Below, piece after piece: positions 5,586 through 55,049 of a stretch of 64,000 bases of DNA. Under the pieces are notes generated by a model that ran no database searches, was not told where the DNA came from, and was given only the letters and a program-made list of their open reading frames with translations. The first letter of the stretch is position 1, and each line of letters begins with the position of its first letter. The stretch is from an uncultured Pseudomonadota bacterium (GTDB lineage: Bacteria > Pseudomonadota > Alphaproteobacteria > Rs-D84). Both the position numbers and the translations under genes were made by a program. The stretch spans positions 2,757 through 66,756 of the forward strand of contig CADAHF010000001.1 in assembly GCA_902787665.1 (NCBI GenBank). The letters are read 5' to 3'.

Positions 5586-5656
5586 TCTCTCTCTTATCTA
5601 TATTTTTATCTTTTCAATTATATCACATTTGGGACAAAATATGATATACTTAAAAC

Positions 5657-6943: not shown

Positions 6944-7011
6944 AAAATCAAGCACTTTATTTTACATCACCCCCTTTTTTATTACGCCCGAATCTGATAT
7001 AATTCACATCA

Positions 7012-7521
7012 ATGAAGCAGTTTCCGATTCTTTATTGGCCGCGTAAGACAACTGGGGATACGATATACCAGTTGGCGCGTAAGGTTATAAATTCGGCAAC
7101 TGGTGAAATGCCTGATGTTGTTACATCTGATTTGGACTTTCCAAAGATATTCGAATCGAATCCAAATGCGGTCGTTTATTACCCAGTGTTTTGCGAATCG
7201 ACGGGCTGGTGGGGTGAATTGTTGGGGGGTGGCGCGGTTGTCACTGATAAGATAATAATTTCCCCGGAATGTCAGTTGATGGTTATAAAGGCGGAAAATA
7301 ATGCTACGGCACATGGTTCACATCAATTGTTTGCAGCAGAAATTTACCCAGCAAGTGGATTCTTTAAGAAAATGAATTCATCAATTGCAACGGTCGCAGA
7401 TATGTTGGCCACAGACGCCGGAACAATTCTGGCGCTTTTTTCAGGAAAAAATCAGAATCAGTTTGTAAATGTGTTGGAAATGACCGGAAATTCTTACCTT
7501 GGGTGTATTGGTCATTATTAA
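7012..7521 (+). CDS. hypothetical protein (169 aa, no signal peptide or TM)
   Basis: Clean ORF directly downstream of VirB6 paralog 5. No family recognised by eye. Confidence 0.35.
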   Translation: MKQFPILYWPRKTTGDTIYQLARKVINSATGEMPDVVTSDLDFPKIFESNPNAVVYYPVFCESTGWWGELLGGGAVVTDKIIISPECQLMVIKAENNATAHGSHQLFAAEIYPASGFFKKMNSSIATVADMLATDAGTILALFSGKNQNQFVNVLEMTGNSYLGCIGHY

Positions 7522-14353: not shown

Positions 14354-14426
14354 ATTTTTGTTTGTGCATTTTCTGCTTGCCCCCGATTCGTCATTTGTTC
14401 TATGATTGAATTGGAAGGAAAGGAAT

Positions 14427-15674
14427 ATGCATAAATTTTCAGCGTCATTGTTGGCGATTTTTGTGATATCAAATGCCTGGGGGGATGTTCGTTTGCCGGT
14501 TGTAAATGTTGCGTCTGCTGGGGTTTCGGCACGTGCCGCATTTGGTGAAGAAATTGTTAATCAAAAAACTGTGTCGGTTGCACCGGTGGTTAAAACGCGT
14601 TCTGTGGTTGCGCGTCCGGCGGTAAAACAAACAAAAGTTTCGCATGGTGAAAAGTTAGCAACCGCTGATATTTTAATTCCAAATCGCCCAAGTTCTGATT
14701 TGTGGGCAACAAATGATGCGCCACTGCGTATGCCACGTCCGTCTGAATTTGCGGTGTTAAATTCTGATTTTGATTTGCCCGAAGAAGATTTAGATTATGT
14801 TCAACAAAAACCGACGGTTGTTGCGCGTAATGCGGAACCAATCACAAAGCATGAGGCAATGGCAGAAATTGATAACCAAATTGCAAAATTAATGGAATTA
14901 CAACGCCGTGCCGATGCGAGCGTGGGTGTGCAAACCACACAGGTGACTACAGAACCAAAAATAATTGAAACAGTTGTTGCGAATAATACAAAAACAGTTG
15001 AAACAAAAAATGGTGATTCGTCGGTAAAATTATCACGCGTGGTTGTGCCAATGGACAATGATACTGTTGCACGCACGGTTGAAAAAAATACTTCGCCACG
15101 TATTACGGCGGCACGCAATGATATGTCTTCGATGTCACCGGCTGAATTACGCCGTGCGTTTCACAAAACGTTTTTGTCTGAAAATAAACATCTTTCTACT
15201 TTCCAGATAGATGACCGTTTTGATACAACAAGTGATATGTCTTCTTCGGTTGAAGGATTCACCGCGGCGCGTGATTTATCTGAATCTGGTGGTATTCGTC
15301 CTTTGGAAATTAAAATAAGATTCCGCAATGATGATTCTGCGTTGTCGCGCGATAATTACACACTGTTGACCGAATATGCATCAATTGTGGTAAGTAATCC
15401 AAAGCGCGCAATTCAAGTCACAATTCCACAGGATGTTATGAACAATGCCGATAGCCGTAAATTAGCGGCACGCAGATTGGCGATTGTGGAACAGGTTTTG
15501 CGTGATACTGGTGTTGCCGAACAACGTATTGTGCCAGTGTTGGCGGCGCGTGGTGATGATGGTTTCTTGCTTCGTATAATTTCAAATGACCAATTTGAAA
15601 CATTGACCCAACAACAGCGCAATTTATTCGGTGACACTGTTGGCAAAAAGACATATAAAAGTATGTCTTGGTAA
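14427..15674 (+). CDS. secreted protein with degenerate OmpA/MotB-like C-terminal peptidoglycan-binding domain
   Basis: Signal peptide MHKFSASLLAIFVISNAWG. The C-terminal ~100 aa fit the OmpA_C pattern (…IRFRNDDSALS…NPKRAIQV…SRKLAARRLAIVEQVLRDTGV…QRIVPV) but lack the GHTD motif. Strong RBS GGAAGGAAAGGA. Confidence 0.45.
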   Translation: MHKFSASLLAIFVISNAWGDVRLPVVNVASAGVSARAAFGEEIVNQKTVSVAPVVKTRSVVARPAVKQTKVSHGEKLATADILIPNRPSSDLWATNDAPLRMPRPSEFAVLNSDFDLPEEDLDYVQQKPTVVARNAEPITKHEAMAEIDNQIAKLMELQRRADASVGVQTTQVTTEPKIIETVVANNTKTVETKNGDSSVKLSRVVVPMDNDTVARTVEKNTSPRITAARNDMSSMSPAELRRAFHKTFLSENKHLSTFQIDDRFDTTSDMSSSVEGFTAARDLSESGGIRPLEIKIRFRNDDSALSRDNYTLLTEYASIVVSNPKRAIQVTIPQDVMNNADSRKLAARRLAIVEQVLRDTGVAEQRIVPVLAARGDDGFLLRIISNDQFETLTQQQRNLFGDTVGKKTYKSMSW

Positions 15675-24805: not shown

Positions 24806-24880
24806 TGGCAGTCCCAACGGGAATCGAACCCGTGTTACCGGAATGAGAATCCGATGTCCTGACCGCTAGACGATGGGACC
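24806..24880 (-). tRNA. tRNA-Glu (anticodon CUC)
   Basis: Minus-strand cloverleaf: a 7-bp acceptor stem with G1-U72, an anticodon loop TTCTCAT, T-loop GGTTCGATTCC, and an encoded CCA. Confidence 0.8.
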
Positions 24881-24998
24881 GTATGTGACGGTATTTTATA
24901 CTCAAATGTTGCTGTTTTCAATTTTTTTCTTTTATGTTGCAATTATGCCAAGATATGCTAGGGTTTGTGATGCTCTTGCTCAAAAAAAGGAACACAAT

Positions 24999-25745
24999 AT
25001 GAATTTGCGATATATAACAATGTCTGATCCAGGTGAAGATTTGGATATTGAAGAAACACTTGATTTGCTTAGTGTGTCGCCGTTGGCAGAATTGGGGGTC
25101 CAGGCTTACCCGTCTGCAATGATGTATGGTTTGCCACGTTATGTTTGGTTTAACAAATTGCTAGATGCGGTTGAAAATCTTAAAGAACAGCCGAACATTG
25201 CTTTACATGTAAATTTTCATTGGTGTGATGATATGTGCAACAATGTGGTTCCTAATCAAATACGGGGTTGGCTGGATAGAAAAAATAAAAAAACAGAAAA
25301 ACCACTAATAAAGCGAATCCAGTTAAACATTGGCGATTCTGCATACGTTTTTCGAGCGCATAAAGTGCATGATTTAATTGCAAGATTTCCAGATCGTGAA
25401 TTTATTTTGCCTTATAATAAACGGGTTGCGTCAAAGATAGATTCTTTACATGCAACAAATGCAAAATTTAATCTGTTGTTTGATGAGTCATATGGGGCTG
25501 GTATTGCAGCGAAGAGTTATGATGTACCACCATACAATGATGTGAATAGTGGTTATGCTGGCGGATTGTCCCCAGAAAATGTAATTGATCGTCTTGGTAA
25601 AATAAATCAGATTTTGCCAGCTGATTATAGCACATGGATTGATGCCGAGGGTCAGTTACGTGGTTGTTTTGGTAGCATGGCTTTGAATAGAGCGCGTGCA
25701 TATTTGGATAATGCACTTAGATGGTGTAAACAACACACAAAATAA
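24999..25745 (+). CDS. TIM-barrel protein with weak similarity to phosphoribosylanthranilate isomerase (TrpF-like); function unknown
   Basis: The C-terminal half resembles TrpF (…FDESYGAGI…VNSGYAGGLSPENVIDRL…WIDAEGQLR…). The start is set at 24999 (RBS AAAGGAA) because the ORF-track start overlaps the tRNA. Confidence 0.35.
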   Translation: MNLRYITMSDPGEDLDIEETLDLLSVSPLAELGVQAYPSAMMYGLPRYVWFNKLLDAVENLKEQPNIALHVNFHWCDDMCNNVVPNQIRGWLDRKNKKTEKPLIKRIQLNIGDSAYVFRAHKVHDLIARFPDREFILPYNKRVASKIDSLHATNAKFNLLFDESYGAGIAAKSYDVPPYNDVNSGYAGGLSPENVIDRLGKINQILPADYSTWIDAEGQLRGCFGSMALNRARAYLDNALRWCKQHTK

Positions 25746-25862
25746 AATTTTCATAACTAATAACAATGCCGTCCGATTGGGCGGCGTTTTTTATATGATT
25801 TTACCTTGAATAAAATCCTAAGTTTGTGCTAGCCTTTGCGTGTAGGAAACAAAACAAAGGTT

Positions 25863-27191
25863 ATGCTTATGAAAAAAATTCTTGCCACATTATCAATATT
25901 AGCGTTGGGAACAACATCTTTTGATGCCTGTGCAGCACAACAAAACAAATCGTTTAGGGAAAAAATGTCTGGTTGGGAATTTGGTGTCGGTGTGCCATTG
26001 GTAACACCATTAACAGGATACAATATGTTTGTTGGATATGTTAACAAAAATGCAACATCTTTTTGGGGTAAACGTTTTGGCCTGCGTTTTGATTTCACAA
26101 TACCATCGCCGCTGCGGTTAAACGCAACACTTAATGATAATAATATTGATGGTTATGATATTGATTTGAATATGAAGGCGTTGTGGATGAATATAAAACG
26201 CCCTGGGTTTGAAACTGCTGAATATATCAAAGATGACCAGGATAACCCAATTCATCTTGATCCAAATTCTGTAAAAGCAGCGTTTGAATTAAAGAACAAA
26301 AGTATGGGATTGTTGGTTGATTTCTATCCGTTCGGCAATACATGGTTTCTTGGTGGAATTCGCCTGACTGGTGGTTATTATATTGGTGATTTGGACATTT
26401 CTGCTAATGTTAAAACGTCCAAGAATATCGATTATATGTATTCTGTTGGTAATGTGGGTGATAATTTGCGCGCGCAAATCGCCGCAGGCAGTCGTATCGG
26501 TGTAAAATATCACTGGAACTATTCTGGACCATACGCTGGTCTTGGGTTTGATTTGGGAATATGGCGCGGCTTTAAATTCTATATGGATGCCGGTGTTGTA
26601 TTTTCACAGGCACCAAAGTTCAAGGAAAGCAACATTGATGACAAACATTTTGTGTTAAAGGGTCGTTATGAAATCAACGGCATTGATTACAGCAATAATA
26701 CAAACATGGTTACCATTATGAATGGTGCCGCTGAAAAACCACAGGCAGATAAAATCGTAAGTGACACCATTGGTCAAACAGCTAAGGATTTCTTAACTAG
26801 TTCTTATGGTCAAGATCCAATGTATAACAGTGTAGTCACCCGAATTCAATCAGATTATGGCGTCAGTATCGCTGATGTCAATATTGCCGATTTGGCAAAT
26901 GACGTTAAGGGGTATTTGAACGGAACATCTAATCCGCAATGGATTGAAAATCTTGTAGCCGTAACTAATCCAGATCCAAACGATCCTAAATTGGAAGAAA
27001 CAATCAAAGATATTAAAGATAACTGGGATACTATCGCAGTCGCAACAAATACTAATGTTCAAGAAGATATTGATAAAGTATGGGACGATTACCAGGATGC
27101 AAAAAAGGACACAATTGATGATATCAATAAAGTCCTGAAAGATATTGGAATCGTGCCAATGGTCAAGATTGGATTTATGTATCGTTTCTAA
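25863..27191 (+). CDS. outer-membrane beta-barrel protein (surface-antigen-like) with acidic C-terminal loop repeats
   Basis: Signal peptide (…ILALGTTSFDACAAQ), alternating amphipathic beta-strands, and a terminal aromatic residue (…IGFMYRF). Confidence 0.5.
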   Translation: MLMKKILATLSILALGTTSFDACAAQQNKSFREKMSGWEFGVGVPLVTPLTGYNMFVGYVNKNATSFWGKRFGLRFDFTIPSPLRLNATLNDNNIDGYDIDLNMKALWMNIKRPGFETAEYIKDDQDNPIHLDPNSVKAAFELKNKSMGLLVDFYPFGNTWFLGGIRLTGGYYIGDLDISANVKTSKNIDYMYSVGNVGDNLRAQIAAGSRIGVKYHWNYSGPYAGLGFDLGIWRGFKFYMDAGVVFSQAPKFKESNIDDKHFVLKGRYEINGIDYSNNTNMVTIMNGAAEKPQADKIVSDTIGQTAKDFLTSSYGQDPMYNSVVTRIQSDYGVSIADVNIADLANDVKGYLNGTSNPQWIENLVAVTNPDPNDPKLEETIKDIKDNWDTIAVATNTNVQEDIDKVWDDYQDAKKDTIDDINKVLKDIGIVPMVKIGFMYRF

Positions 27192-36964: not shown

Positions 36965-37719
36965 CCCGTTATAAAGTAAATCTTGAATATGATGGAACCG
37001 ATTTAATCGGGTGGCAAGAAAATGCCCAGGGGCCATCTGTACAATCAATTTTGTCGGATGCGATTTTTTCTTTCTGTGGTACGCGTCCCGATGTCGTTGG
37101 CGCGGGTCGCACAGATGCTGGTGTGCATGCGTTAAATATGGTCGCACATTTTGATTTGGATAAAGACGTGGATTCCGAAACAGTTATGCGGGCATTGAAT
37201 TTTTATTTGGTTAATAAACCTGTTGCAGTATTAAATTGCGAAATTGTTGCGGACGATTTTAATGCGCGTTTTGATTGTGTAAGACGCAATTATAAATATG
37301 TCGTATTAAATCGTGGACCGCAACCAGTGTTAAATAAAAATCGTGTTTGGTGGGTGCCGCGCAAATTAAATATAACTGCGATGAAACGCGCAGCTTCAAG
37401 GTTGGTTGGCAAGCATGATTTTACAAGTTTTCGTGCCGCCGAATGTCAGGCAAAGTCACCGATTAAAACGCTTGATTCGGCAACCGTTATAAAACAAGGC
37501 GATGAAATTATTTTCGAATTTTCAGCGCGGTCTTTTTTGCATCACCAGGTTCGTAATATGGTTGGAACATTGGTTGAAATTGGCGCTGGTAAACCATACG
37601 ATATTGATGAGATTTTTGCGGCAAAAAATCGCAGCGCTGCGGGTCCAAATGCACCGGCGTCAGGCCTGTATTTCGTTAGTGCTGAATATTCCAACGGCGG
37701 TTGTAATTCTGATAAATAA
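36961..37719 (+). CDS. truA: tRNA pseudouridine(38-40) synthase
   Basis: …LEYDGTDLIGWQ…GAGRTDAGVHA… includes the catalytic Asp motif. Confidence 0.9.
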   Translation: MTRYKVNLEYDGTDLIGWQENAQGPSVQSILSDAIFSFCGTRPDVVGAGRTDAGVHALNMVAHFDLDKDVDSETVMRALNFYLVNKPVAVLNCEIVADDFNARFDCVRRNYKYVVLNRGPQPVLNKNRVWWVPRKLNITAMKRAASRLVGKHDFTSFRAAECQAKSPIKTLDSATVIKQGDEIIFEFSARSFLHHQVRNMVGTLVEIGAGKPYDIDEIFAAKNRSAAGPNAPASGLYFVSAEYSNGGCNSDK

Positions 37720-39601
37720 TTTTGCCGTTTTCATAAATTATAAATCCATCGCGTAAAATTTTAGATTCACAATTCGGCGCAGTGATATCAAAATACGAAA
37801 CAATATAATCAACCGTTTCATCATTACACAGTTTCGTTATGTTGTTTTGCAGTGCAGAAAATTTCTGCATATATGCGATTTTGATTTTTGGTGATTGAAA
37901 TATATACAATCCTTTTTTATGCTTCGCACGTGTGTTTGGTGTATCTGTTTTTATATGTGCAAAATGTTTCCATGTGTCAAAAGTGAAATAATGATTTGAT
38001 GCGCGCGATTTATTAAATGTAATTTCATTATCATTTACAAACGCGACAAGTTCATGATCGCTTGTTGCCATAAACAACGGTTTTGGTGTGGCTACAATTG
38101 TGATAATGCCAAATAGTATAAATATTGCCCCAAGTATGTAATTCATTTTTATCTTTAACGGGCGAATTAAAACAACGCACATCATGCCAAGAATAATCAA
38201 ACATAGTGCCATATTAGATATATATGGTGTTTGTATTGTGGCATGTGGTAATTCAGCAATAAATTTTGCAACAGACAAAGTAAAGTTATATGCAACATCT
38301 GCAATATGTAATGGAAACGCAAAACCACAAATGGCTGCAAATATGCCAATAATAACAAGTGGCATAATTATAACTGAAAACAGGGGCAGTAAAATTAAGT
38401 TTCCGATAATGCTGTAGATTGGCACCGAATAAAAATGCACGGCGATGAATGGCGCAGTAAAGATTGACGCAACAATCGCAGTTAAAACAGCAGTTGTTAG
38501 ATAACGCGGAATTTTGTTTTCTGGCAGTTTTGGATTAACACAATTCCAAAACCAGACAAGACCAAATATAGCCGAAAAAGATAACTGAAAACCCGCTGTC
38601 ATAATATAATATGGGTTAATCAAAAACAGAATGCAAAATGCCAGACATACATTACGTAATGAAAACGCCCCGCGCCCCAATAATGCTGCCAAACAAATAA
38701 GTGTTGCCATTAAAAATGCGCGCAGTGTTGCAACCGATGCACCAGATATCAGTACATAAGAAATAAGGACGCCCCACGCGCAACACATGGCGATGTGTTT
38801 TGCAGGTATGCGTTTAACAATCGGTGGTATTAAACGAAACAGAAAATAAAATATCGCGAACAACCAACCCATAATAAGCGTCATGTGGAAACCACTGATT
38901 GACCAAACATGCCCAACACCCGTCGATGTCCAGATTTCGCGTTCAGCTGCGGGCAGGGTGTGTTTATATCCCAATATCAAACTGTCCACCAGAGGTGCAT
39001 TTGTGTGGTTGTGTATCCATGAACGTAAGTTATTCGGTGCGCGTTCCGTTATTGTAATATCATCGGCATATCCAGTTGATGTCAGCTTGTTGAAATACGA
39101 CCAACGTGCAAAATCAAAGCCACCGGGTGCGTCCGCCGGGCTGGGGGTGAACAATGTCGCGGTTGTTTCAACTTCATCGTTTATATTTATTTGATTTGCT
39201 GTATCCACAGATATACGCACCACTGCATGACGACTTGAATCAATGTTTAATTCATTTGCGGGAACACTAATATAAATACGTGTCTTGTCGGCGGTATAAT
39301 CAATATCACTAACGCGTCCAGCAATTTCAACATCGCGCAAGTTTTTCTTTAATATTGGTGTATCTATCGTATTGGTGTACGCACACGCGTAAACAAAACC
39401 AAAAAGAAAAATTAAAATTGCGCGAATAATAATTGGTGCGCGCCAAAGACACATTGTCCCAAACAAAATTGCTGATATTAAAAACGCAAATGGAATATGT
39501 GGCTCAAACCCAATTGAAAAATATAGTGCACCACCCGCCGCCATTATAAACGGGACCCATAAAAACAGATTATCTTTTTGCACTTTCCAGATTTCTTGCA
39601 T
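37676..39601 (-). CDS. comEC: ComEC/Rec2-family DNA internalisation channel protein (short form)
   Basis: DUF4131-like N-terminus and a polytopic competence domain. 641 aa. Its 3' end overlaps the truA 3' end by 44 nt (convergent). Confidence 0.7.
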   Translation of the reverse strand: MQEIWKVQKDNLFLWVPFIMAAGGALYFSIGFEPHIPFAFLISAILFGTMCLWRAPIIIRAILIFLFGFVYACAYTNTIDTPILKKNLRDVEIAGRVSDIDYTADKTRIYISVPANELNIDSSRHAVVRISVDTANQININDEVETTATLFTPSPADAPGGFDFARWSYFNKLTSTGYADDITITERAPNNLRSWIHNHTNAPLVDSLILGYKHTLPAAEREIWTSTGVGHVWSISGFHMTLIMGWLFAIFYFLFRLIPPIVKRIPAKHIAMCCAWGVLISYVLISGASVATLRAFLMATLICLAALLGRGAFSLRNVCLAFCILFLINPYYIMTAGFQLSFSAIFGLVWFWNCVNPKLPENKIPRYLTTAVLTAIVASIFTAPFIAVHFYSVPIYSIIGNLILLPLFSVIIMPLVIIGIFAAICGFAFPLHIADVAYNFTLSVAKFIAELPHATIQTPYISNMALCLIILGMMCVVLIRPLKIKMNYILGAIFILFGIITIVATPKPLFMATSDHELVAFVNDNEITFNKSRASNHYFTFDTWKHFAHIKTDTPNTRAKHKKGLYIFQSPKIKIAYMQKFSALQNNITKLCNDETVDYIVSYFDITAPNCESKILRDGFIIYENGKIIYQNYNRRWNIQH

Positions 39602-41779: not shown

Positions 41780-42946
41780 ATGAAGGGAAGATTTCTTATT
41801 TTGCCGATGCTGTTTTTTGCATCAATTGCCAACGCGGCGAATTACCGTGCAGCAATGGTCGCCGATATGGATTCGGGGCGCGTTTTGTATTCTGAAAACG
41901 CAACCGATTTGAACTATCCGGCAAGTTTAACAAAAATTATGACGCTGTACCTGACGTTTGATGCGCTGGAACATGGGCGGTTACACCTGGACGACTATTT
42001 AATCGTTTCAAATGCTGCGGCAAATGCAGAGCCGGTAAAACTTGGTTTGCCCGCTGGCAGCAAGATTACGGTCGAAGACGCGATAAAGGCGGTTGCTGTG
42101 CACAGTGCAAATGATGTTGCACGCGTCTTGGCAGAAAACCTGAAAGGTGGGAAAGAGGGTAATTTTGCATCGTTAATGACACGTGTGGCACGGGAAATAG
42201 GATTGTCGAAAACTAATTTTGAAAACTCTTCGGGGCTGCCGGACGATGACCATTTGTCCACTGCGCGTGATATCGCGCTGGTTGCGATGGCGGTGTATAA
42301 GCATTTCCCACAATACTGGAAATACTTTGGTATTGGGTCGTGGACATACGGCGGCAAAACATATACAAACGGAAATCGTTTGTTGGCGACATATCCGGGT
42401 TGTGATGGTATGAAGACGGGTTATACGAATAAATCGAAATATTCACTTGTTGCGACGGCAAAACGTGGTGATAAACATTTAATGGCGGTTGTTTTGGGTG
42501 CAGAAAATAAAGATGTGCGTGCCGCGGTTTCGGCAAAGCTGCTGGATAAAGGGTTTGATATGTTGGCACGCGACCCAGCACCAGCAATGATTGTGCGTGA
42601 ATCGCCAACTGTGGCGCCGATTGATACAACACCAAAGTCTGCACCAGTTTATGATAATACACAATCAGTAAATACATTTGCAGGCGCATATCATGCGGCA
42701 ACAAATCATGCGCCGGTTACAGTATCGCAAAGCGGTCCTGGTGTTCAATTTGGTGCGTTTTCAACGCGTGATGCAGCGTCACGTATGATTGCAACCGTAA
42801 AAAATGCAACTGGTACAACGCCGATTATTGAAACAGCACCAAATGGATTGTTCCGCGTGCGTGCATATGGTTTGACGGAAAGCGCAGCACAATCGTTAAA
42901 AACAAAAGCATCGGCATCTGGTATTGATTGCTATGTGTTTCATTGA
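41780..42946 (+). CDS. D-alanyl-D-alanine carboxypeptidase (PBP5/6-like) with C-terminal SPOR domain
   Basis: Signal peptide. Active-site motifs SLTKIMT (SxxK), SAND (SxN) and KTGYT. The C-terminal ~70 aa are SPOR-like (…VQFGAFSTRDAASRMIATV…FRVRAYGLTESAAQSL…). Confidence 0.8.
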   Translation: MKGRFLILPMLFFASIANAANYRAAMVADMDSGRVLYSENATDLNYPASLTKIMTLYLTFDALEHGRLHLDDYLIVSNAAANAEPVKLGLPAGSKITVEDAIKAVAVHSANDVARVLAENLKGGKEGNFASLMTRVAREIGLSKTNFENSSGLPDDDHLSTARDIALVAMAVYKHFPQYWKYFGIGSWTYGGKTYTNGNRLLATYPGCDGMKTGYTNKSKYSLVATAKRGDKHLMAVVLGAENKDVRAAVSAKLLDKGFDMLARDPAPAMIVRESPTVAPIDTTPKSAPVYDNTQSVNTFAGAYHAATNHAPVTVSQSGPGVQFGAFSTRDAASRMIATVKNATGTTPIIETAPNGLFRVRAYGLTESAAQSLKTKASASGIDCYVFH

Positions 42947-49409: not shown

Positions 49410-49436
49410 AAATGCCCGTTTGGGCATTTTTATTTA
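49408..49436 (+). terminator. rho-independent terminator after yidC
   Basis: AAAATGCCCGTTTGGGCATTTTTATTT. Confidence 0.75.
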
Positions 49437-49787
49437 TGAATTAAATATTTATACAGTGCATATGGTGTTTGTATAAATATGGATTTTATTTTTAATGTGT
49501 GTTTGCATAAATCAACACAAGAATATGCAGATACACAATCAAGATTTATTGGTGTGGGTGGCGAGATATAAACAAATTTCCAACCATATAGACGCAGAAT
49601 CGTGATGTCACGTGGGCAAAGATGAATTTTTGTAATATGATTTCGTCGTATAAATTGATACATAATTAAATCTTTGCCTGAACATATTATTGGTGCGCAA
49701 TGACGATAATGGCGACACAATATGCGTGGCAAAATTTTGGAAGTGTTTTCTGCAAAAGCAATAATAATCATTGTCGTATCCTTTTTT

Positions 49788-50132
49788 TTATTTTTCTAAC
49801 CAACCGCATTCTAAAGCCGCCGTTTCAATTGTGTTCATTGCATCCCGCCATAATGCCGCTGCACGATTTTCAGACCATATATATTGGTGTGGTGCACGTC
49901 GCCGGTCACCAAATTTTTTCATAACAGCCAATTGTTCATCACTTAATTTCCCACACAGATAAAGTTTGGTTATTAATGTTTCGACATCTAATAATTCACA
50001 CGGTCTGCGTGTTGGTGTGCCGTGGTAATGCGTATATCCATTTTGAACAGATTTAGAATATAAAAACCAAAACCATAATTGTTCTGCATTGTGAAACTTT
50101 TCCTGATTGTATGCCATTTGGGTTTGTGTCAT
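49788..50132 (-). CDS. hypothetical small protein (114 aa), possible HTH-like segment
   Basis: Strong RBS AAGGAG 9 nt upstream of the ATG. It lies immediately downstream of the virB8-10 operon terminators. No family recognised. Confidence 0.4.
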   Translation of the reverse strand: MTQTQMAYNQEKFHNAEQLWFWFLYSKSVQNGYTHYHGTPTRRPCELLDVETLITKLYLCGKLSDEQLAVMKKFGDRRRAPHQYIWSENRAAALWRDAMNTIETAALECGWLEK

Positions 50133-50429: not shown

Positions 50430-52775
50430 CTACAATATCGGCGGGAAACAATCGCCACCAACTTCGGGACAGCAATTAAATCCCTGGTCGCCCATATCTG
50501 TATAAATTTCACCAGCACAACAACCATTTGCATCTGGATTAGAACCGTCTGTACATTTTATTACTGCTTCTGATGCATTGTTTCCAGAAGAAGAGTTCTT
50601 GAACGGATTTTCAATTGTGCCGTTATCGTTGTATTTTAACCCAAGAACTTGTTCATTATATTTCTGTGTTCCTTTGCCACCTGTGCTGGCAATACTGTTA
50701 GTATTAGATGGATCTTGTTGATTTTGATAAACCGCTTGTTGTTTTGCATTATTAATTGCCTCATAATTACTGGCCTGACAATATGCGACAAGCGTGCTGT
50801 ATGAATAACCCAATTTCTGTAATTCTTCGCGCACTGTATCATATGATTTTGCAGTTATAATACCATTTTTAGGTTCACACAGATTACCCAAATTAAATGA
50901 ACGTGCCTGACCAACCCAAGTACCATCGTTATAATCTGCATATGCACCCCATTTTGGTGTGCTGCGTACATTATTTGCCATGGCGGTACGAACCATACAT
51001 TTTTCGTTTGTTGTGCACGCAACCATTAAATCATTTGGAGAATATACTGTAATACGTGTTCCAGCCGGAATCGTAAATGGCGGAACGGTATTATCCATCA
51101 TATCAACCAATAATTTTTGTGCAACCTGATTCCAAGCAGTTATGATTTCGTTTTTTGCAAGTTCAGAAGAACGCATGGTCCCACTTTGCACAACGGTGTT
51201 ATTATCCAAATCAATTTGGTTTACGAATTTATCAGCAACCGGTGCAATCATATTAACAGCCGCTGGAACAATAGATGTTAACATTGGCATAACGAATTGT
51301 TCTAAGTAATCGGTACTGCCCCGTCCAGGAACACCAATACGACCCTGGGCGTCGGCAGAAACAGGTTCGTCATTTGCAAAATTAAATTCAACACCATTTG
51401 GTAAAACAAATTGATACCATTTTATGTTCATACGACCGATTGCCTTATAAGGACCAGGTACTTGACCGGTGACATAACCCAACAACAATGTTCCTGTTGG
51501 AATTATTATTGTTCGACCATTGTCTGAATACACATTACGGTCAACCGTTGCGCGAACAGGAAAATGTAAGTTATCTGCATCCAATGCCGTATCAGCACGA
51601 ACATCCGATACAATTGTTGCAGGAATTGGTTTATATTGACGAAGGATAAATGTTCTGTCATATGGTTGTGTTGACACGACAACAGTTTGGTCTGTGGTAT
51701 CAAATATTGCATCTTTGATTGGTGCTGGATTTAATGTAATGCGACCCATTTCACCGATTGGTTCGCTTGCCACAGATGTTGGACGATTTGCAACACGTGC
51801 ACGTGGTGCGTCCATAAGTGTCGGCATTAAACCGGTTGTCAAAGCAGAATTTATATGTTCTGCATCAGTACCGATTTTTTTGCCAGCATCATTAATATCT
51901 GTAATCAAACCCGTTCCAGGATTATATATCCCAGTTGCGTTTTTACAATTGCGATCAGAAAACAGATAGAAATAATAACCACCGTGTTCTGGTTTTATCC
52001 AACCATTTTGAGTGCCATATACATCATACCCAGGAAACGCAAAGTCAGAACAACTTTCGCTTGGGTGGACAACCGGTGCAACAGATGGTTCCGTTGCTGT
52101 CGGCAATTTTGTTTTGGTTGTTTTAACAGGTTCTGTTGCAAATGGATCTGATGGCGCAATAGATTTAACCTCTTGTTCAATTTTTGTAGCTGTTGTTGGC
52201 GCAACATATTCAGGTTCATCAAAATCATTGATTTGTTTTTTTGGTGTTACAACTGATTTTGGTTTTTCAATTTGCTCTGGTGCGGATGCGCCCAAAACCA
52301 CCATAACTTTTTCCGCAGATTTCATTTCTTCGGGTTCGTTTTCGCCACGCCAATATATAGATAATGTTAATGTTTCTGGTTTTGCGGCAACAGTCGGCGC
52401 ATATTCCAAAAATACATTACATGAAATTTTGGCATTTATAACGGCGGCATCTGTGCATGTGGTTTTTGCACTAAAACCAGCAACAGTTTTATTTTGACCC
52501 ATTGATACCTTAGCAGGGGCGGTTGTTTTCACAGATATGGTTTGTGTCTTTTTTTCGCCAACGGTTACATTTGCCCAATCGACAGTATCGGCCGACAAAG
52601 TTATTTTCACAGGGACATCTTCTTTGACTGGTGCGGCAGATTTATTTTTTGTTCCAGTCAGTAATAATGTTAACAAAATCAATACCACAATGAATGTTGC
52701 ACCCAAAAGCAACCATTGAACTTGCTTTGGGGTCGAGTCACGCATATTTAAAAATTGTTGTTTTAATTTGTTCAT
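50430..52775 (-). CDS. virB10: T4SS VirB10/TrbI-family protein, enlarged (~780 aa) with extra N-terminal periplasmic domains and a Cys-rich ~200-aa C-terminal extension
   Basis: Cytoplasmic N-terminus and one TM helix (WLLLGATFIVVLILLTLLL). The conserved VirB10 C-terminal barrel region is present (…DRNVYSDNGRTIIIPTGTLLLGYV…RIGVPGRG…GTRITVYSPNDL…). The ATG at 52775 is preferred over the GTG at 52793. Confidence 0.75.
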   Translation of the reverse strand: MNKLKQQFLNMRDSTPKQVQWLLLGATFIVVLILLTLLLTGTKNKSAAPVKEDVPVKITLSADTVDWANVTVGEKKTQTISVKTTAPAKVSMGQNKTVAGFSAKTTCTDAAVINAKISCNVFLEYAPTVAAKPETLTLSIYWRGENEPEEMKSAEKVMVVLGASAPEQIEKPKSVVTPKKQINDFDEPEYVAPTTATKIEQEVKSIAPSDPFATEPVKTTKTKLPTATEPSVAPVVHPSESCSDFAFPGYDVYGTQNGWIKPEHGGYYFYLFSDRNCKNATGIYNPGTGLITDINDAGKKIGTDAEHINSALTTGLMPTLMDAPRARVANRPTSVASEPIGEMGRITLNPAPIKDAIFDTTDQTVVVSTQPYDRTFILRQYKPIPATIVSDVRADTALDADNLHFPVRATVDRNVYSDNGRTIIIPTGTLLLGYVTGQVPGPYKAIGRMNIKWYQFVLPNGVEFNFANDEPVSADAQGRIGVPGRGSTDYLEQFVMPMLTSIVPAAVNMIAPVADKFVNQIDLDNNTVVQSGTMRSSELAKNEIITAWNQVAQKLLVDMMDNTVPPFTIPAGTRITVYSPNDLMVACTTNEKCMVRTAMANNVRSTPKWGAYADYNDGTWVGQARSFNLGNLCEPKNGIITAKSYDTVREELQKLGYSYSTLVAYCQASNYEAINNAKQQAVYQNQQDPSNTNSIASTGGKGTQKYNEQVLGLKYNDNGTIENPFKNSSSGNNASEAVIKCTDGSNPDANGCCAGEIYTDMGDQGFNCCPEVGGDCFPPIL

Positions 52776-52807
52776 ATTACAACATATCCGCACTTGTTAT
52801 TACAATC

Positions 52808-54349
52808 TTATTGAATACGAACGACACTGCAACTTGCACCACTGAACTTTAACAATTGGTCACACAGTTTTTGTGCCGCATCAATATCACTCATTGGACC
52901 AATGCGCAAACGATACAAGCGTGCCGCAGATGCGCCCGACCCAAGATCGCCAACACCCTGTTCGTCAACAGCAAAGAACACCTTGTCTTTATATGGGGTC
53001 AATATTCCTTGTCCATTGTCGCCACTGAATTTAGCAAGCAAATCAACCCAGTAATCATTTAACGCCTTGACCGAAGAATCTGATTTCAATTCAACGGCAA
53101 CACCAGCCTGATTGCTTGTAATAAGTGGAATGTTTGATTGTGGCAAATATGAACCAGCCGTAACGCGTTCTGTTGGCATCATTGTTACACCACCTGCAGA
53201 TTGTGTCATTGGTGTTATTGTTGCAGGTTGTGGATATGCCTGGCCAGCAACGAAGCCGGTTGGCATATAATAGCCAGCCGCGGCATTGTTGGACATATCG
53301 CCAATCATAACAGGTGTCCCGGTATTATTCACACCAGCACTATTTATGGCGGCCATATCATAACCATAAGCCATATTGTTCAACGATTGTCCCGACATCA
53401 TAGATTGTGCAACATTTGCCTCAGCCAAAGCCATAACAGATGCGGTATCAGTAATCAAGAATGGTTTTTCACGTTTTTTGATACATACGATACGTTGACC
53501 ACTGCGCAAGACCATGTCGCCAACCGCTTCGACAATAATCAAACGGCCGTCTTCACCATCGGTACGGAAACCAACAGGGGATTCGCCACCTTCGACCAAC
53601 AATGAAACCACCGGACGTTGAGTCATGGATATAACCTTGTCACCGAAATCAATATATGTGAATATACGGTCACGCCATACACGTTCAGGCGCAATTACAT
53701 AATCGTCTGGATTTGGAACAAAGATATCCAAATCAAAGCGAAATTCAGAAGGGTCGATTTTCATTGATTTTATCCAGCCATAATCTTCGCCATCAACACC
53801 GACCGTGTTTGATTTTTGGGCACTCTTTTTAAATACAGATGACATCGTGCCATTTGGCATTGTTGTGCCGGTTGCATTTGGCAAAGTTGCGCCACCGTCC
53901 ATTACAACTTCGACCTGAGAATAGGTAACCTCAGACGAATTGGATGGTTCTGCACGCAGATAGAATATGTATTTGTTGCCAGATTTACCAGTAACAATCA
54001 AATTAGTATCACCACCTTGGACCCCAGAATTTGGTGTTAAATACATAACGTTTGTGCCAGCGGTACCTTCAAATTTAAACAAACCATCGTCGCCAAACAT
54101 ACCATCTTCGATTTGTTCGCCGTTTGGCAATGTAACCATCGTAACCATGCCACTGCGCAATTTGATTGGTAAAACCGTTCCTTTGGACCAGGACAATTGT
54201 GCATAACCAGGTTTGGTGCTGCCCGATGTCATATTTGCACTTGGGTTATTCCACGCATTCTGTGCAGAAAATGCCGACATTGGCATGGCGCAAACACAAG
54301 CCAAGCACAATAAAGAAATGTTCAACTTAATCGTTCTTGAAAATATCAT
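52808..54349 (-). CDS. virB9: T4SS VirB9/TrbG-family protein fused to a C-terminal FtsN-like SPOR domain
   Basis: Signal peptide (…LLCLACVCAMPMSAFSA). VirB9 N-domain (…PIKLRSGMVTMVTLPNGEQIEDGMFGDD…NLIVTGKSGNKYIFYLRAE…) and C-domain (…IFTYIDFGDKV…RLIIVEAVGDMVLRSGQRIVCIKK…). The terminal ~95 aa are SPOR-like and carry a Cys pair (…LYRLRIGPMSDIDAAQKLCDQLLKFSGASCSVVRIQ). RBS AAAGGAAAGG before the ATG at 54349. Confidence 0.7.
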   Translation of the reverse strand: MIFSRTIKLNISLLCLACVCAMPMSAFSAQNAWNNPSANMTSGSTKPGYAQLSWSKGTVLPIKLRSGMVTMVTLPNGEQIEDGMFGDDGLFKFEGTAGTNVMYLTPNSGVQGGDTNLIVTGKSGNKYIFYLRAEPSNSSEVTYSQVEVVMDGGATLPNATGTTMPNGTMSSVFKKSAQKSNTVGVDGEDYGWIKSMKIDPSEFRFDLDIFVPNPDDYVIAPERVWRDRIFTYIDFGDKVISMTQRPVVSLLVEGGESPVGFRTDGEDGRLIIVEAVGDMVLRSGQRIVCIKKREKPFLITDTASVMALAEANVAQSMMSGQSLNNMAYGYDMAAINSAGVNNTGTPVMIGDMSNNAAAGYYMPTGFVAGQAYPQPATITPMTQSAGGVTMMPTERVTAGSYLPQSNIPLITSNQAGVAVELKSDSSVKALNDYWVDLLAKFSGDNGQGILTPYKDKVFFAVDEQGVGDLGSGASAARLYRLRIGPMSDIDAAQKLCDQLLKFSGASCSVVRIQ

Positions 54350-54371: not shown

Positions 54372-55049
54372 CTATTCCCTGCCAATGACGAACGCATCAA
54401 GCGGATCACCATCGCCAGATTCAACCGTGTATTCTGCAACACGCAAGCCCAATGGATTTTCCATATGGTCGGTCCAACGCATCGCATTTGCATCATCGGT
54501 TACCAGTGTTATCTTTATTCTATAATCTTTTCGGTCGGTCTGTCCATAACTATTTGTACAAAACCATTTGAAATCAACAGTATATACCGAACCGTCAGAT
54601 GTGTATTTATTTACACTGCCCGGGGAAAATTCCACCGAACAAGAAAAATCAAAACTGCCGTTATTCAGCAAGAATTCTTGATACATCGCAGTGCCCGCAA
54701 ATCCAGCAAAAATATCGTCCGAAGACATTGTTTTTATGGTGCCGTTCTGCATACCCCAATTTTTCTCCATAGTGCGAACACTGGGGCTAACCTCATTACG
54801 TGTTTTGATATATTCGGCAATAAAAGCGCGTTTATAGCGTTCTAAATCATCACCATCTGGCATAACCTGGGTAAGTGTAACCTGGGCATTGTTCGGGTTG
54901 ACGGAACGTAGAAAGAACACCTCTGGTCTATCAAGAGGAAACATTTTATACAGTGTTATCAGCAGCGCAGCCAGCACAACCAACGTTGCCGCAAAGACAA
55001 GCGTCAAAACCCGAGACAGTAAAATTGGCGGTTCTATGCGGTTTTGCAC
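54372..55049 (-). CDS. virB8: T4SS VirB8/TrbF-family protein
   Basis: 225 aa, bitopic, with N-terminal TM helix LLSRVLTLVFAATLVVLAALLITL. NTF2-like periplasmic domain ending with the VirB8-like NPLGLRVAEYTV motif. The GTG start is preceded by the strong RBS GGGGGAGA. Confidence 0.55.
   Translation of the reverse strand: MQNRIEPPILLSRVLTLVFAATLVVLAALLITLYKMFPLDRPEVFFLRSVNPNNAQVTLTQVMPDGDDLERYKRAFIAEYIKTRNEVSPSVRTMEKNWGMQNGTIKTMSSDDIFAGFAGTAMYQEFLLNNGSFDFSCSVEFSPGSVNKYTSDGSVYTVDFKWFCTNSYGQTDRKDYRIKITLVTDDANAMRWTDHMENPLGLRVAEYTVESGDGDPLDAFVIGRE

What the first reader, a model, noticed from the sequence alone, without database searches (positions are those of the whole stretch)
52808..53110. VirB9 fused to an FtsN-like SPOR (septal peptidoglycan-binding) domain
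The VirB9 ORF is about 513 aa from the ATG at 54349, roughly 200 aa longer than typical VirB9/TrbG. A Gly/Ala/Met/Gln-rich linker follows the VirB9 C-domain. After it, the last ~95 residues read …LYRLRIGPMSDIDAAQKLCDQLLKFSGASCSVVRIQ. This resembles the SPOR domain of FtsN, including a Cys pair placed like FtsN's disulfide. A SPOR domain on the outer-membrane core complex would tether the T4SS to denuded glycan strands, for example at division septa. I know of no described VirB9-SPOR fusion. The nearby D,D-carboxypeptidase (41780-42946) carries a second SPOR domain.
Basis: partly seen in the sequence, partly recalled or inferred. Interest (0 to 1): 0.7.

Follow-up and report, generated by a model that had tools for sequence, protein, structure and literature searches.

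The report
VirB9 with a SPOR-like cell-wall tail
A type IV secretion system outer-membrane core protein (VirB9) in a reduced-genome gut alphaproteobacterium carries, on a long flexible linker, a conserved SPOR-fold domain that probably ties the machine to the cell wall, and the same undescribed fusion occurs in many other alphaproteobacterial secretion and conjugation systems.

Summary
The minus-strand ORF 52808-54349 encodes one 513-aa protein with four parts:
- a signal peptide;
- the two VirB9 domains (Pfam CagX, E 1.5e-20);
- a 118-aa, nearly uncharged, disordered linker;
- a roughly 97-aa C-terminal domain.

The C-terminal domain is a SPOR-superfamily member. It scores above Pfam's SPOR cut-off, and 27 of 30 diverse homologous tails also hit SPOR. 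AlphaFold2 gives the beta-alpha-beta-beta-alpha-beta fold. The best annotated structural matches are the RlpA, CwlC, DedD and DamX SPOR domains.

The fusion is not a frameshift artefact. All 80 Candidatus Enterousia-like species genomes keep it in one ORF, with conserved virB8-virB9-virB10 synteny.

It is also not peculiar to this organism. 58 of the 150 nearest VirB9 cluster representatives carry the tail. These include complete virB/virD4 operons on Erythrobacter and Sphingosinicella plasmids, and VirB9 proteins of Microvirga. All are annotated simply as "TrbG/VirB9".

- The hallmark SPOR glutamine is glutamate here, so denuded-glycan and septal specificity is not established.
- The invariant Cys pair is not arranged like FtsN's.

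The most likely role is a multivalent peptidoglycan tether for the outer-membrane core complex. I found no paper that describes this fusion. I rate it a new variant of a known kind, of moderate interest.

The parts
52808..54349 (-). virB9 coding sequence: 513 aa plus stop. One ORF encodes signal peptide, VirB9 N- and C-domains, linker and SPOR-like tail.
   Evidence: ORF list. Pfam CagX plus SPOR. 120 full-length homologs at 72-97% identity. Single ORF in 80/80 species genomes. SD-like AAGGA upstream of the ATG.
54263..54349 (-). Predicted Sec signal peptide, residues 1-29 (MIFSRTIKLNISLLCLACVCAMPMSAFSA|Q). No lipobox.
   Evidence: Read from the sequence: basic n-region, hydrophobic h-region, A-x-A-type site. 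AF2 helix at residues 6-20. The 'A.AQ' motif is conserved in relatives. No signal-peptide predictor was run.
53474..54199 (-). VirB9 core, residues 51-292, covered by Pfam CagX PF03524. AF2 shows two beta-rich domains at about 40-150 and 200-293, joined by a low-confidence loop at 159-191.
   Evidence: Pfam E 1.5e-20, 74.4 bits against a cut-off of 34.2. AF2 pLDDT about 80-89 for both domains. Residues 181-320 are 94-100% conserved in the genus.
53114..53467 (-). Flexible linker, residues 295-412 (118 aa). Ala/Thr/Met/Gly-rich with 5.9% charged residues.
   Evidence: Composition. pLDDT below 50 for 295-412. Lowest conservation in the protein, 45-73%, with indels. Linker length varies from 32 to 212 aa across the family, median 114.
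52814..53104 (-). SPOR-superfamily domain, residues 416-512: b1 416-424, a1 427-441, b2 457-463, b3 477-486, a2 489-503, b4 508-512.
53090..53092 (-). Glu420 in strand beta1, at the position of the hallmark SPOR Gln (RlpA Q270, FtsN Q251).
   Evidence: Codon checked. Glu in 121/121 close homologs; 24 E, 4 D, 1 Q and 1 V in alignment A3. Role of the Gln from PMC6895207. The positional equivalence comes from motif alignment (VAVELKS against MVQCGSF) and secondary structure, not from a superposition.
52904..52912 (-). Arg480-Leu481-Arg482 in strand beta3, within LYRLRIGP. This is the basic patch corresponding to RlpA R309/R311 and FtsN R285.
   Evidence: hhalign aligns R480 with FtsN R285. PMC6895207 equates FtsN R285 with RlpA R309. 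In A3, L481 is invariant, R482 is kept in 27/30, and position 480 is R or H in 28/30.
52829..52864 (-). Invariant Cys pair: C496 in helix alpha2 and C507 at the start of beta4. Presumed intradomain disulfide.
   Evidence: Codons checked. Invariant in A3 (30/30), in A6 (23/23) and in every close-set sequence that covers those columns (119, plus 2 truncated).
54372..55049 (-). virB8 (225 aa), immediately upstream in the same operon.
   Evidence: Pfam VirB8 E 7.7e-11. Present upstream of virB9 in 80/80 related genomes.
50430..52793 (-). virB10 (787 aa), immediately downstream. The TrbI domain covers residues 386-588, flanked by long N- and C-terminal extensions.
   Evidence: Pfam TrbI E 2.4e-19. 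Present in 80/80 related genomes.

Best explanation
The gene encodes a bona fide VirB9 subunit of a chromosomal P-type (VirB-like) type IV secretion system. The organism is Candidatus Enterousia (order Rs-D84), a gut and rumen alphaproteobacterium with a genome of about 0.75-1 Mb.

After the canonical VirB9 C-domain, which in solved core complexes sits on the outside of the outer-membrane O-layer, the protein continues. A roughly 118-residue uncharged disordered tether leads to a disulfide-stabilised SPOR-superfamily domain.

The most likely mechanism is this. Each VirB9 copy in the core-complex ring (about 14 in solved VirB-type systems) dangles one SPOR-like module into the periplasm. There it binds glycan strands of the peptidoglycan sacculus. 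The result is a multivalent tether that fixes, and possibly positions, the outer-membrane core complex relative to the cell wall.

Shown here: the single ORF, the domain architecture, the SPOR fold, purifying selection on the tail, the operon context, and the wide distribution.

Inferred: export to the periplasm, the disulfide, peptidoglycan binding, multivalency, and any positional preference.
For: - **Architecture and fold:**
- **Selection:** the tail is 82-91% conserved against 45-73% for the linker. The tail lies in one ORF in 80/80 species genomes of a lineage under strong genome reduction (PMC12306168). VirB9 is the best conserved of the three vir genes, at 72% median identity against 46% and 52%.
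- **T4SS context:** virB8-virB9-virB10 synteny. Relatives with the same tail sit in complete operons with virB2 to virB11 and virD4. Enterousia encodes VirB4 elsewhere in the genome.
- **Breadth:** 35 of the 150 nearest VirB9 cluster representatives carry a significantly similar tail. A further 23 carry a divergent version that is homologous by hhalign (95.7%, E 9e-9). Linker length varies from 32 to 212 aa while the tail is retained, as expected for a tethered module.
- **Binding residues:** the Arg pair of the beta3 basic patch and the G-P turn are conserved. In RlpA, many glycan contacts are made by main-chain atoms of the sheet (PMC6895207).
- **Precedent:** the Dot/Icm core complex carries OmpA-like peptidoglycan-binding subunits, DotK and Dis1 (PMC9302130).
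Against: - No binding data exist.
- The one side chain most conserved among SPOR domains is the beta1 Gln that hydrogen-bonds the MurNAc lactyl carboxylate. It is replaced by Glu or Asp in this family. That could weaken or change glycan recognition.
- The aromatic residue at HMM position 12 (RlpA F274) is absent in the Enterousia-type tails, although it is present in the divergent group.
- Pfam aligns only the second half of the SPOR model in the window protein.
- Profiles of the tail do not find solved SPOR domains by sequence.
- Only virB8-9-10 lie in this window, so a complete machine in this organism is inferred rather than seen.
Confidence: 0.6

Rival explanations
1. Septal or polar targeting. 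The tail binds specifically to denuded, amidase-processed glycan strands, as FtsN, DamX, DedD and RlpA do. It thereby recruits or retains the T4SS at division sites and new poles.
For: - SPOR superfamily membership.
- All characterised SPOR domains bind denuded glycans (PMC6895207; bioRxiv 10.1101/2022.07.01.498525).
- The same genome keeps a canonical SPOR domain on DacA, which suggests denuded glycans are a meaningful landmark in this organism.
- The basic patch is retained.
Against: - The Gln that reads the free lactyl carboxylate, the chemical signature of a denuded strand, is Glu or Asp here.
- The FtsN-type disulfide geometry is not reproduced.
- No localisation data exist.
- Fourteen or more low-affinity modules per machine would also bind ordinary sacculus regions containing short denuded stretches.
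Confidence: 0.25
2. A repurposed SPOR fold. The domain keeps the RNP-like SPOR scaffold but has lost peptidoglycan binding. It instead binds a protein partner of the machine (for example the greatly extended VirB10 of these systems, or a VirB7-like lipoprotein) or a different envelope polymer.
For: - Loss of the hallmark Gln and, in the Enterousia-type tails, of the position-12 aromatic.
- Family-specific invariant features absent from canonical SPOR domains: the Cys pair and W434 in helix alpha1.
- Co-occurrence with unusually long VirB10-like proteins: 787 aa here, 2653 aa in L081, and 2195 aa plus more than 1442 aa in L086.
Against: - 27/30 tails still score as SPOR in Pfam, with no competing family.
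- The beta3 Arg pair that forms the glycan-binding basic patch is conserved.
- A long, variable, disordered tether is typical of SPOR proteins that reach the wall (PMC6895207 introduction). It is unnecessary for an intra-complex contact.
Confidence: 0.14
3. Artefact. The tail is a separate gene or a frameshifted or mis-assembled fusion, or the SPOR match is a chance hit.
For: - Some database entries are short 'stand-alone' tail proteins of 57-188 aa.
- In two related contigs, gene callers split virB9 from the tail.
Against: - Those splits coincide with a run of N in the linker (L088) or with a single-base deletion relative to a near-identical contig (L086).
- The short products lack signal peptides and begin inside linker sequence, or come from short contigs where visible.
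- 80/80 species genomes and 120/120 best homologs are continuous.
- Independent Pfam hits in 27/30 diverged tails, together with fold evidence, rule out chance.
Confidence: 0.01

Closest known systems
Canonical VirB9 / TraO / TrbG subunits of P-type T4SS outer-membrane core complexes (A. tumefaciens VirB9, pKM101 TraO, R388 TrwF)
   Same: Pfam CagX/VirB9 domain over residues 51-292. Two beta-rich domains. Sec signal peptide. Gene order virB8-virB9-virB10.
   Different: Canonical proteins end shortly after the C-domain, at about 290-300 aa. Tail-less relatives are 290-320 aa. This protein adds a 118-aa linker and a 97-aa SPOR-like domain. The genes are chromosomal and scattered in Enterousia: virB4 lies elsewhere, and no virB7, virB11 or virD4 is adjacent.
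SPOR domains (PF05036) of RlpA, FtsN, DamX, DedD and CwlC
   Different: The beta1 Gln is replaced by Glu. An invariant alpha2-beta4 Cys pair replaces FtsN's beta1-beta4 pair. Insertions in the a1-b2 and b2-b3 loops make the domain about 97 aa rather than about 70-76. The carrier is a secretion-system core subunit, not a divisome protein, lytic transglycosylase or amidase. The Alcorlo et al. introduction states that all known SPOR proteins function in division or morphogenesis.
OmpA-like peptidoglycan-binding subunits DotK and Dis1 of the Legionella Dot/Icm (type IVB) core complex
   Same: A peptidoglycan-binding module that is stoichiometrically part of a T4SS outer-membrane complex (PMC9302130). 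This is the closest functional analogy.
   Different: An unrelated fold (OmpA-like rather than SPOR). Separate lipoprotein subunits rather than a fusion to the VirB9/DotH-type subunit. A type IVB system rather than type IVA.
Xanthomonas citri VirB7 with its extra C-terminal N0 domain, and H. pylori CagX (from my own knowledge; not tested here)
   Same: Examples of core-complex subunits of VirB-type systems decorated with extra domains. CagX is a VirB9 homolog of similar total length.
   Different: The Xanthomonas decoration is on VirB7 and is an N0 domain that forms an outer ring. The CagX extension is N-terminal. Neither is a SPOR or peptidoglycan-binding domain.
Peptidoglycan-binding modules of other envelope-spanning machines (T6SS TagL/TssL extensions, T2SS GspA/ExeA, T4P TsaP LysM, flagellar MotB) (from my own knowledge)
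   Same: The general principle: a trans-envelope nanomachine anchored to the sacculus by an appended wall-binding domain.
   Different: Different machines, different domain families (OmpA-like, PF01471, LysM) and different subunits.

Membership tests
VirB9/TrbG/CagX family (PF03524) | Profile HMM match above the curated threshold | tested here: met
   74.4 bits against a cut-off of 34.2, residues 51-292 covering profile positions 5-197 of 198. 88/88 relatives scanned also match.
VirB9/TrbG/CagX family (PF03524) | Encoded between virB8 and virB10 in a T4SS gene cluster | tested here: met
   VirB8 (E 7.7e-11) upstream and TrbI/VirB10 (E 2.4e-19) downstream. Conserved in 80/80 genomes. Relatives lie in full virB/virD4 operons.
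VirB9/TrbG/CagX family (PF03524) | Exported, two-domain beta-rich periplasmic protein | tested here: met
   Signal-peptide-like N-terminus, read by eye. AF2 shows two beta domains with pLDDT 80-89. No dedicated signal-peptide predictor was available.
VirB9/TrbG/CagX family (PF03524) | Assembles with VirB7 and VirB10 into the outer-membrane core complex | not testable with these tools
   Requires biochemistry or cryo-EM. No virB7 candidate was seen next to virB9 in the window.
SPOR domain (PF05036) | Profile HMM match above the gathering score | tested here: met
   23.0 bits in the whole protein and 26.3 bits in the tail alone, cut-off 21, but only profile positions 42-76 of 76 are aligned. 27/30 homologous tails match, best E 6e-8.
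SPOR domain (PF05036) | b-a-b-b-a-b fold: a four-stranded antiparallel sheet backed by two helices | tested here: met
   [not shown]
SPOR domain (PF05036) | Conserved beta1 Gln (RlpA Q270, FtsN Q251, DamX Q351) that contacts MurNAc and GlcNAc | tested here: not met
   Glu420 in 121/121 close homologs; E or D in 28/30 of the wider family. The DacA SPOR in the same window has the Gln. The Gln is 'preferential', not universal, in the family HMM (PMC6895207).
SPOR domain (PF05036) | Basic patch on the sheet (RlpA R302/R309/R311, FtsN R285) | tested here: met
   R480 aligns with FtsN R285. R482 is kept in 27/30 and position 480 is R or H in 28/30. The equivalent of RlpA R302 was not mapped.
SPOR domain (PF05036) | Binds denuded peptidoglycan glycan strands and localises to the septum | not testable with these tools
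   Needs sacculus pull-down, ITC or localisation experiments.
FtsN-type SPOR domain (disulfide C252-C312) | Cys pair linking beta1 to the start of beta4 | tested here: not met
   The residue equivalent to FtsN C252 is Leu421. C496 aligns with a Leu in FtsN helix alpha2. Only C507 lies near the C312 position, by manual alignment. hhalign to FtsN SPOR gives probability 11%.

The most novel reading that the evidence does not exclude
The Glu-type, Cys-locked SPOR-like tail defines a distinct subclass of alphaproteobacterial P-type T4SS. In this subclass the outer-membrane core complex reads a specific peptidoglycan chemistry, and that reading dictates where on the cell the machine is built. The ligand could be denuded strands at the septum or new pole. 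Alternatively, because Gln is replaced by Glu, it could be a different glycan state, such as N-deacetylated or otherwise modified strands. In the partner-dependent, roughly 0.9-Mb Enterousia this wall-coupled positioning would be integral to contact with the partner cell. This would be the first SPOR-family domain with a role outside division and morphogenesis, and possibly one with a new ligand specificity.
Probability: 0.2. Interest if true: 0.7.

Novelty: new variant of a known kind. Interest (0 to 1): 0.5.

Why it matters
How type IVA secretion systems pass through the peptidoglycan layer and are fixed to it is poorly defined. The known links are accessory lytic transglycosylases and, in type IVB systems, OmpA-like subunits.

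A wall-binding module fused directly to the ring-forming VirB9 subunit would give a simple, testable answer for one subfamily. The fusion is retained in 80/80 Enterousia-like genomes of about 1 Mb or less. It is also present in conjugative-type operons of cultured Erythrobacter and Sphingosinicella and in VirB9 proteins of Microvirga.

It would also extend the SPOR family to a machine outside cell division. The natural Gln-to-Glu variant could probe what SPOR domains actually read.

On the practical side, these proteins are currently annotated only as "TrbG/VirB9 family". The cultured plasmid systems offer tractable models for deletion and localisation experiments.

The finding is not paradigm-changing, because peptidoglycan anchors on envelope-spanning machines are a familiar theme.

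Tried and rejected
1. **Sequence searches of the tail against solved structures.** A single sequence and a 30-sequence profile gave only chance hits (antibody light chains, coiled coils). SPOR domains are too divergent for this. Fold comparison was needed.
2. **hhalign of the tail profile against single sequences.** Against the window's own DacA SPOR domain and E. coli FtsN SPOR, only the beta3-alpha2 half aligned, at low probability (17% and 11%). I used these only to map residues, not as evidence of homology.
3. **Stand-alone SPOR genes next to virB9** (P0277, P0280 and others). I first took these as a possible natural split that would support a functional link. I rejected them as artefacts: an N-run in the linker in one contig, a 1-nt deletion in another, and no signal peptides.
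4. **Other T4SS genes in the window.** blastp of all window ORFs against the complete operons of L081 and L082 found only VirB8, VirB9 and VirB10. The large unannotated ORFs at 411-7521 are not detectably T4SS-related.
5. **ComB-like competence system.** I considered this because comEC lies 11 kb away. Nothing supports it beyond proximity. Relatives have virD4 and virB11, and JGI's 'ComB9' label on one relative is only an automatic name. Not pursued.
6. **Lipoprotein VirB9.** No lipobox precedes any N-terminal Cys.
7. **First attempt at the genome scan.** It failed because the alignment was too diverse. I repeated it with 12 sequences.
8. **AFDB fold search.** The library was not available.
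9. **Duncan et al. 2013 (PMC3837948).** The paper is not held, so the effect of FtsN Q251 substitutions could not be read directly.
10. **Literature on BPSS2145 / 6ozd.** None found.
Full report
**1. What is at the coordinates**

The minus strand between 52808 and 54496 is one open frame. The ATG at 54349 is the likely start. It lies 20 nt downstream of the virB8 stop and is preceded by AAAGGAAAGGA. It gives 513 aa, in line with the 505-534 aa of the 120 best database homologs.

Pfam finds CagX/VirB9 at residues 51-292 (E 1.5e-20). It finds SPOR (PF05036) at residues 477-511 with 23.0 bits against a curated cut-off of 21.

The neighbours are virB8 (54372-55049) and a long virB10 (50430-52793, 787 aa) on the same strand. 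Everything else nearby is housekeeping:
- on one side, tRNA-Trp, secE, nusG and rplK/rplA;
- on the other, yidC, lspA, a Kef-type antiporter, ksgA, recR, an S41 peptidase, a DacA-SPOR carboxypeptidase, pyruvate kinase and comEC.

**2. Whose genome it is**

A scan of one genome per GTDB species found 568 loci encoding relatives. The best 80, at 69-91% identity over residues 1-513, are all gut or rumen MAGs. They are labelled Candidatus Enterousia, 'Alphaproteobacteria bacterium' or 'uncultured Rickettsiales', and include a circular 958,618-bp chromosome.

Enterousia belongs to order Rs-D84. Published genomes are 0.75-1.0 Mb and lack most biosynthetic pathways. The organisms are proposed to depend on a partner organism (PMC12306168).

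**3. Is the fusion real?**

Yes.
- All 80 genomes carry the tail in the same stop-to-stop frame as VirB9, of at least 501 codons.
- The order rplK-nusG-secE | virB8-virB9-virB10-orf114-orf113 | yidC-lspA is conserved.
- Across 120 homologs the tail is 82-91% identical to the query, while the preceding linker is 45-73% identical and carries indels. The tail is therefore under purifying selection in a lineage that sheds genes readily.
- VirB9 is the most conserved of the three vir proteins, at 72% median identity against 46% for VirB8 and 52% for VirB10.

Short 'stand-alone' tail proteins do appear in the databases, and in two contigs the tail is called as a separate gene. These are artefacts. 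One contig has a run of N in the linker. The other has a single-base deletion relative to a near-identical sequence. The products examined lack signal peptides and start inside linker sequence.

**4. Is the tail a SPOR domain?**

By superfamily, yes.
- I collected 35 tail-bearing proteins from a search of 1.84 billion cluster representatives and aligned 30 diverse tails at 21-74% identity to the query (A3).
- Scanned individually, 27 of the 30 hit Pfam SPOR (best E 6e-8), and no other family recurs.
- AlphaFold2 on this alignment gives pLDDT 84 and pTM 0.74, with strand-helix-strand-strand-helix-strand topology.
- Foldseek against the PDB ranks RlpA SPOR (6i09, 6i05; probability 1.00, target-normalised TM 0.70) and DedD SPOR first.
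- Sequence-only searches of the PDB fail. This is expected for a family with less than 20% pairwise identity (PMC6895207).

The full-length model shows beads on a string:
- the VirB9 N-domain at about 40-150 and the C-domain at about 200-293, both at pLDDT 80-89;
- a 295-412 segment with pLDDT below 50;
- the SPOR module at 416-512.

The linker is Ala/Thr/Met/Gly-rich and only 5.9% charged. Across the family its length ranges from 32 to 212 residues.

**5. Where the tail departs from canonical SPOR domains**

According to the RlpA-glycan crystal structures, four side chains contact the ligand: Q270, R302, R309 and R311. Only the Gln is broadly conserved. It binds the MurNAc lactyl carboxylate that is exposed when the peptide stem is removed (PMC6895207).

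In this family the beta3 motif L-Y-R-L-R-I-G-P retains the two arginines. R480 aligns with FtsN R285, which the paper equates with RlpA R309. L481 is invariant and R482 is kept in 27/30.

The beta1 position of the Gln, however, is Glu. This holds in 121/121 Enterousia-type sequences. In the wider set the counts are 24 E, 4 D, 1 Q and 1 V. The SPOR domain on the DacA carboxypeptidase in the same window has the textbook VQFGAF, so the substitution is specific to the VirB9 tail and not a habit of the organism.

The two cysteines are invariant in every tail examined that covers them. C496 lies in helix alpha2, aligned with a Leu of FtsN, and C507 lies at the start of beta4. FtsN's essential disulfide joins beta1 (C252) to beta4 (C312) (PMC6895207). 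A disulfide is a reasonable inference for an invariant periplasmic pair, but I could not measure it in the model.

**6. How widespread it is, and in what systems**

Among the 150 best representatives of 50%-identity clusters, 35 have a significantly similar tail.

Another 23 end in a more divergent domain with the same C-x(9-11)-C ending, often with a G-[PA]-[YF] beta1 motif. Their profile matches the first group by hhalign at 95.7% probability, E 9e-9, over 79 columns. In total, 58 of 150 carry the module.

Carriers include:
- metagenomic relatives in complete operons. One runs virB4, several virB6-like genes, two virB8 copies, virB9-tail, a 2653-aa virB10-like gene and virB11 (L081). Another runs virB4, virB5, virB6, virB8, virB9-tail, virB10, virB11 and an intein-containing virD4 (L082).
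- cultured bacteria. The Erythrobacter aureus YH-07 408-kb plasmid has virB2 to virB11 plus virD4, and its 432-aa VirB9 ends in ...DVRLRVGPFFGLAEGVRVCKAMTAAGKSCAVISAS. A Sphingosinicella plasmid and several Microvirga species are further examples.

All are annotated only as 'TrbG/VirB9 family P-type conjugative transfer protein'. Fragments are sometimes auto-named 'SPOR domain-containing protein, partial', and some database entries already list PF05036 together with PF03524. Routine annotation can therefore see the fusion, but full-text searches found no paper that discusses it.

**7. Is there a machine in Enterousia?**

The window holds only virB8, virB9 and virB10. A VirB4 homolog named as from Candidatus Enterousia merdequi exists. 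A 79%-identical copy sits on a 72-kb, 34%-GC contig. It is preceded by a small gene and a VirB4 N-domain ORF, in a housekeeping neighbourhood.

The T4SS genes are therefore scattered on the chromosome, as in Rickettsiales (the comparison is from my own knowledge). I did not locate virB2, virB6, virB11 or virD4 in Enterousia, so completeness is inferred.

**8. Mechanism**

Established structural work on pKM101 and R388-type core complexes places the VirB9 C-domain on the outer surface of the O-layer beneath the outer membrane, in about 14 copies. This is from my own knowledge. The 14-fold symmetry is also mentioned in PMC9302130.

A C-terminal extension would therefore radiate into the periplasm without obstructing the channel. 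A disordered tether of about 118 residues is ample to reach the sacculus.

The best-supported reading is a ring of SPOR-like modules that tether the core complex to peptidoglycan glycan strands. This is analogous in effect to the OmpA-like DotK and Dis1 subunits of the Dot/Icm complex. I put this at about 0.6.

The more specific claim is recognition of denuded strands, and hence septal or polar placement. It is plausible but weakened by the Gln-to-Glu change (about 0.25). A repurposed fold that binds a protein partner or another polymer remains possible (about 0.14). An artefact is excluded.

**9. Verdict**

The domain assignment is correct at superfamily level. The 'FtsN-like' details and the septal-tethering function are not established.

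The fusion is a new variant of a known kind: a familiar secretion-system subunit carrying a familiar wall-binding fold in a combination not described in the literature searched. It has family-specific twists (Glu for Gln, and a different Cys pair). It is broadly distributed, including in tractable cultured hosts. Interest is moderate.

Noticed in passing
window 50430-52793 (-); L081 11608-19569; L086 7095-15098: The VirB10 next to the fusion is unusually long at 787 aa. Its TrbI domain covers only residues 386-588. It has a long N-terminal part and a Cys-rich C-terminal extension (...CTDGSNPDANGCCAGEIYTDMGDQGFNCCPEVGGDCFPPIL). Relatives with SPOR-tailed VirB9 have giant VirB10-like genes: 2653 aa in L081, and 2195 aa plus more than 1442 aa with Bflower and TrbI domains in L086.
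   Followed up: partly
window 41780-42946 (+): A D,D-carboxypeptidase (Peptidase_S11, E 3.4e-55) is fused to a canonical SPOR domain (28.3 bits; VQFGAF and LFRVRAYG motifs). It also provides an in-genome contrast to the Glu-type VirB9 tail.
   Followed up: partly
window 411-7521: Six consecutive ORFs have no Pfam match at E <= 0.001: 432, 479, 401 and 413 aa on the minus strand, and 428 and 169 aa on the plus strand. They show no similarity to the T4SS genes of L081 or L082. ORFs at 14406-15674, 24873-25745 and 25836-27191 also have no Pfam hit.
   Followed up: partly
window 49788-50132 (-) and 49430-49771 (-): Two small ORFs (114 and 113 aa) with no Pfam match directly follow virB10 on the same strand. 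They are conserved there in 70/80 and 68/80 Enterousia-like genomes, and orf114 has 71% median identity. They may be part of the vir operon.
   Followed up: partly
L082 17256-20432: The VirD4 coupling protein of a distant relative's operon carries Hint and LAGLIDADG homing-endonuclease domains. It is 1058 aa, which suggests an intein inside virD4.
   Followed up: no
L090 8826-11599: In an Enterousia-like contig, VirB4 is called as two abutting ORFs: 272 aa (VirB4_TrbE_N) and 532 aa (CagE_TrbE_VirB). It sits in a housekeeping neighbourhood next to lpxK/lpxC and a PilO/T2SSE/T2SSF pilus-like cluster. Many VirB4 hits of this clade are 530-720 aa, so the split may be real.
   Followed up: no
window 53390-53449 (residues 301-320 of VirB9): The first 20 residues after the VirB9 C-domain (DTASVMALAEANVAQSMMSG) are 97% conserved within the genus, although they lie in the 'linker'. 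AF2 predicts a low-confidence helix here. The segment is not conserved in distant relatives.
   Followed up: no
[not shown]
   Followed up: partly
window 37676-39601 (-): A ComEC competence-channel homolog (Competence, E 9.8e-52) lies about 11 kb from the vir genes. I considered a ComB-like DNA-uptake role for the T4SS, but nothing supports it beyond proximity.
   Followed up: no
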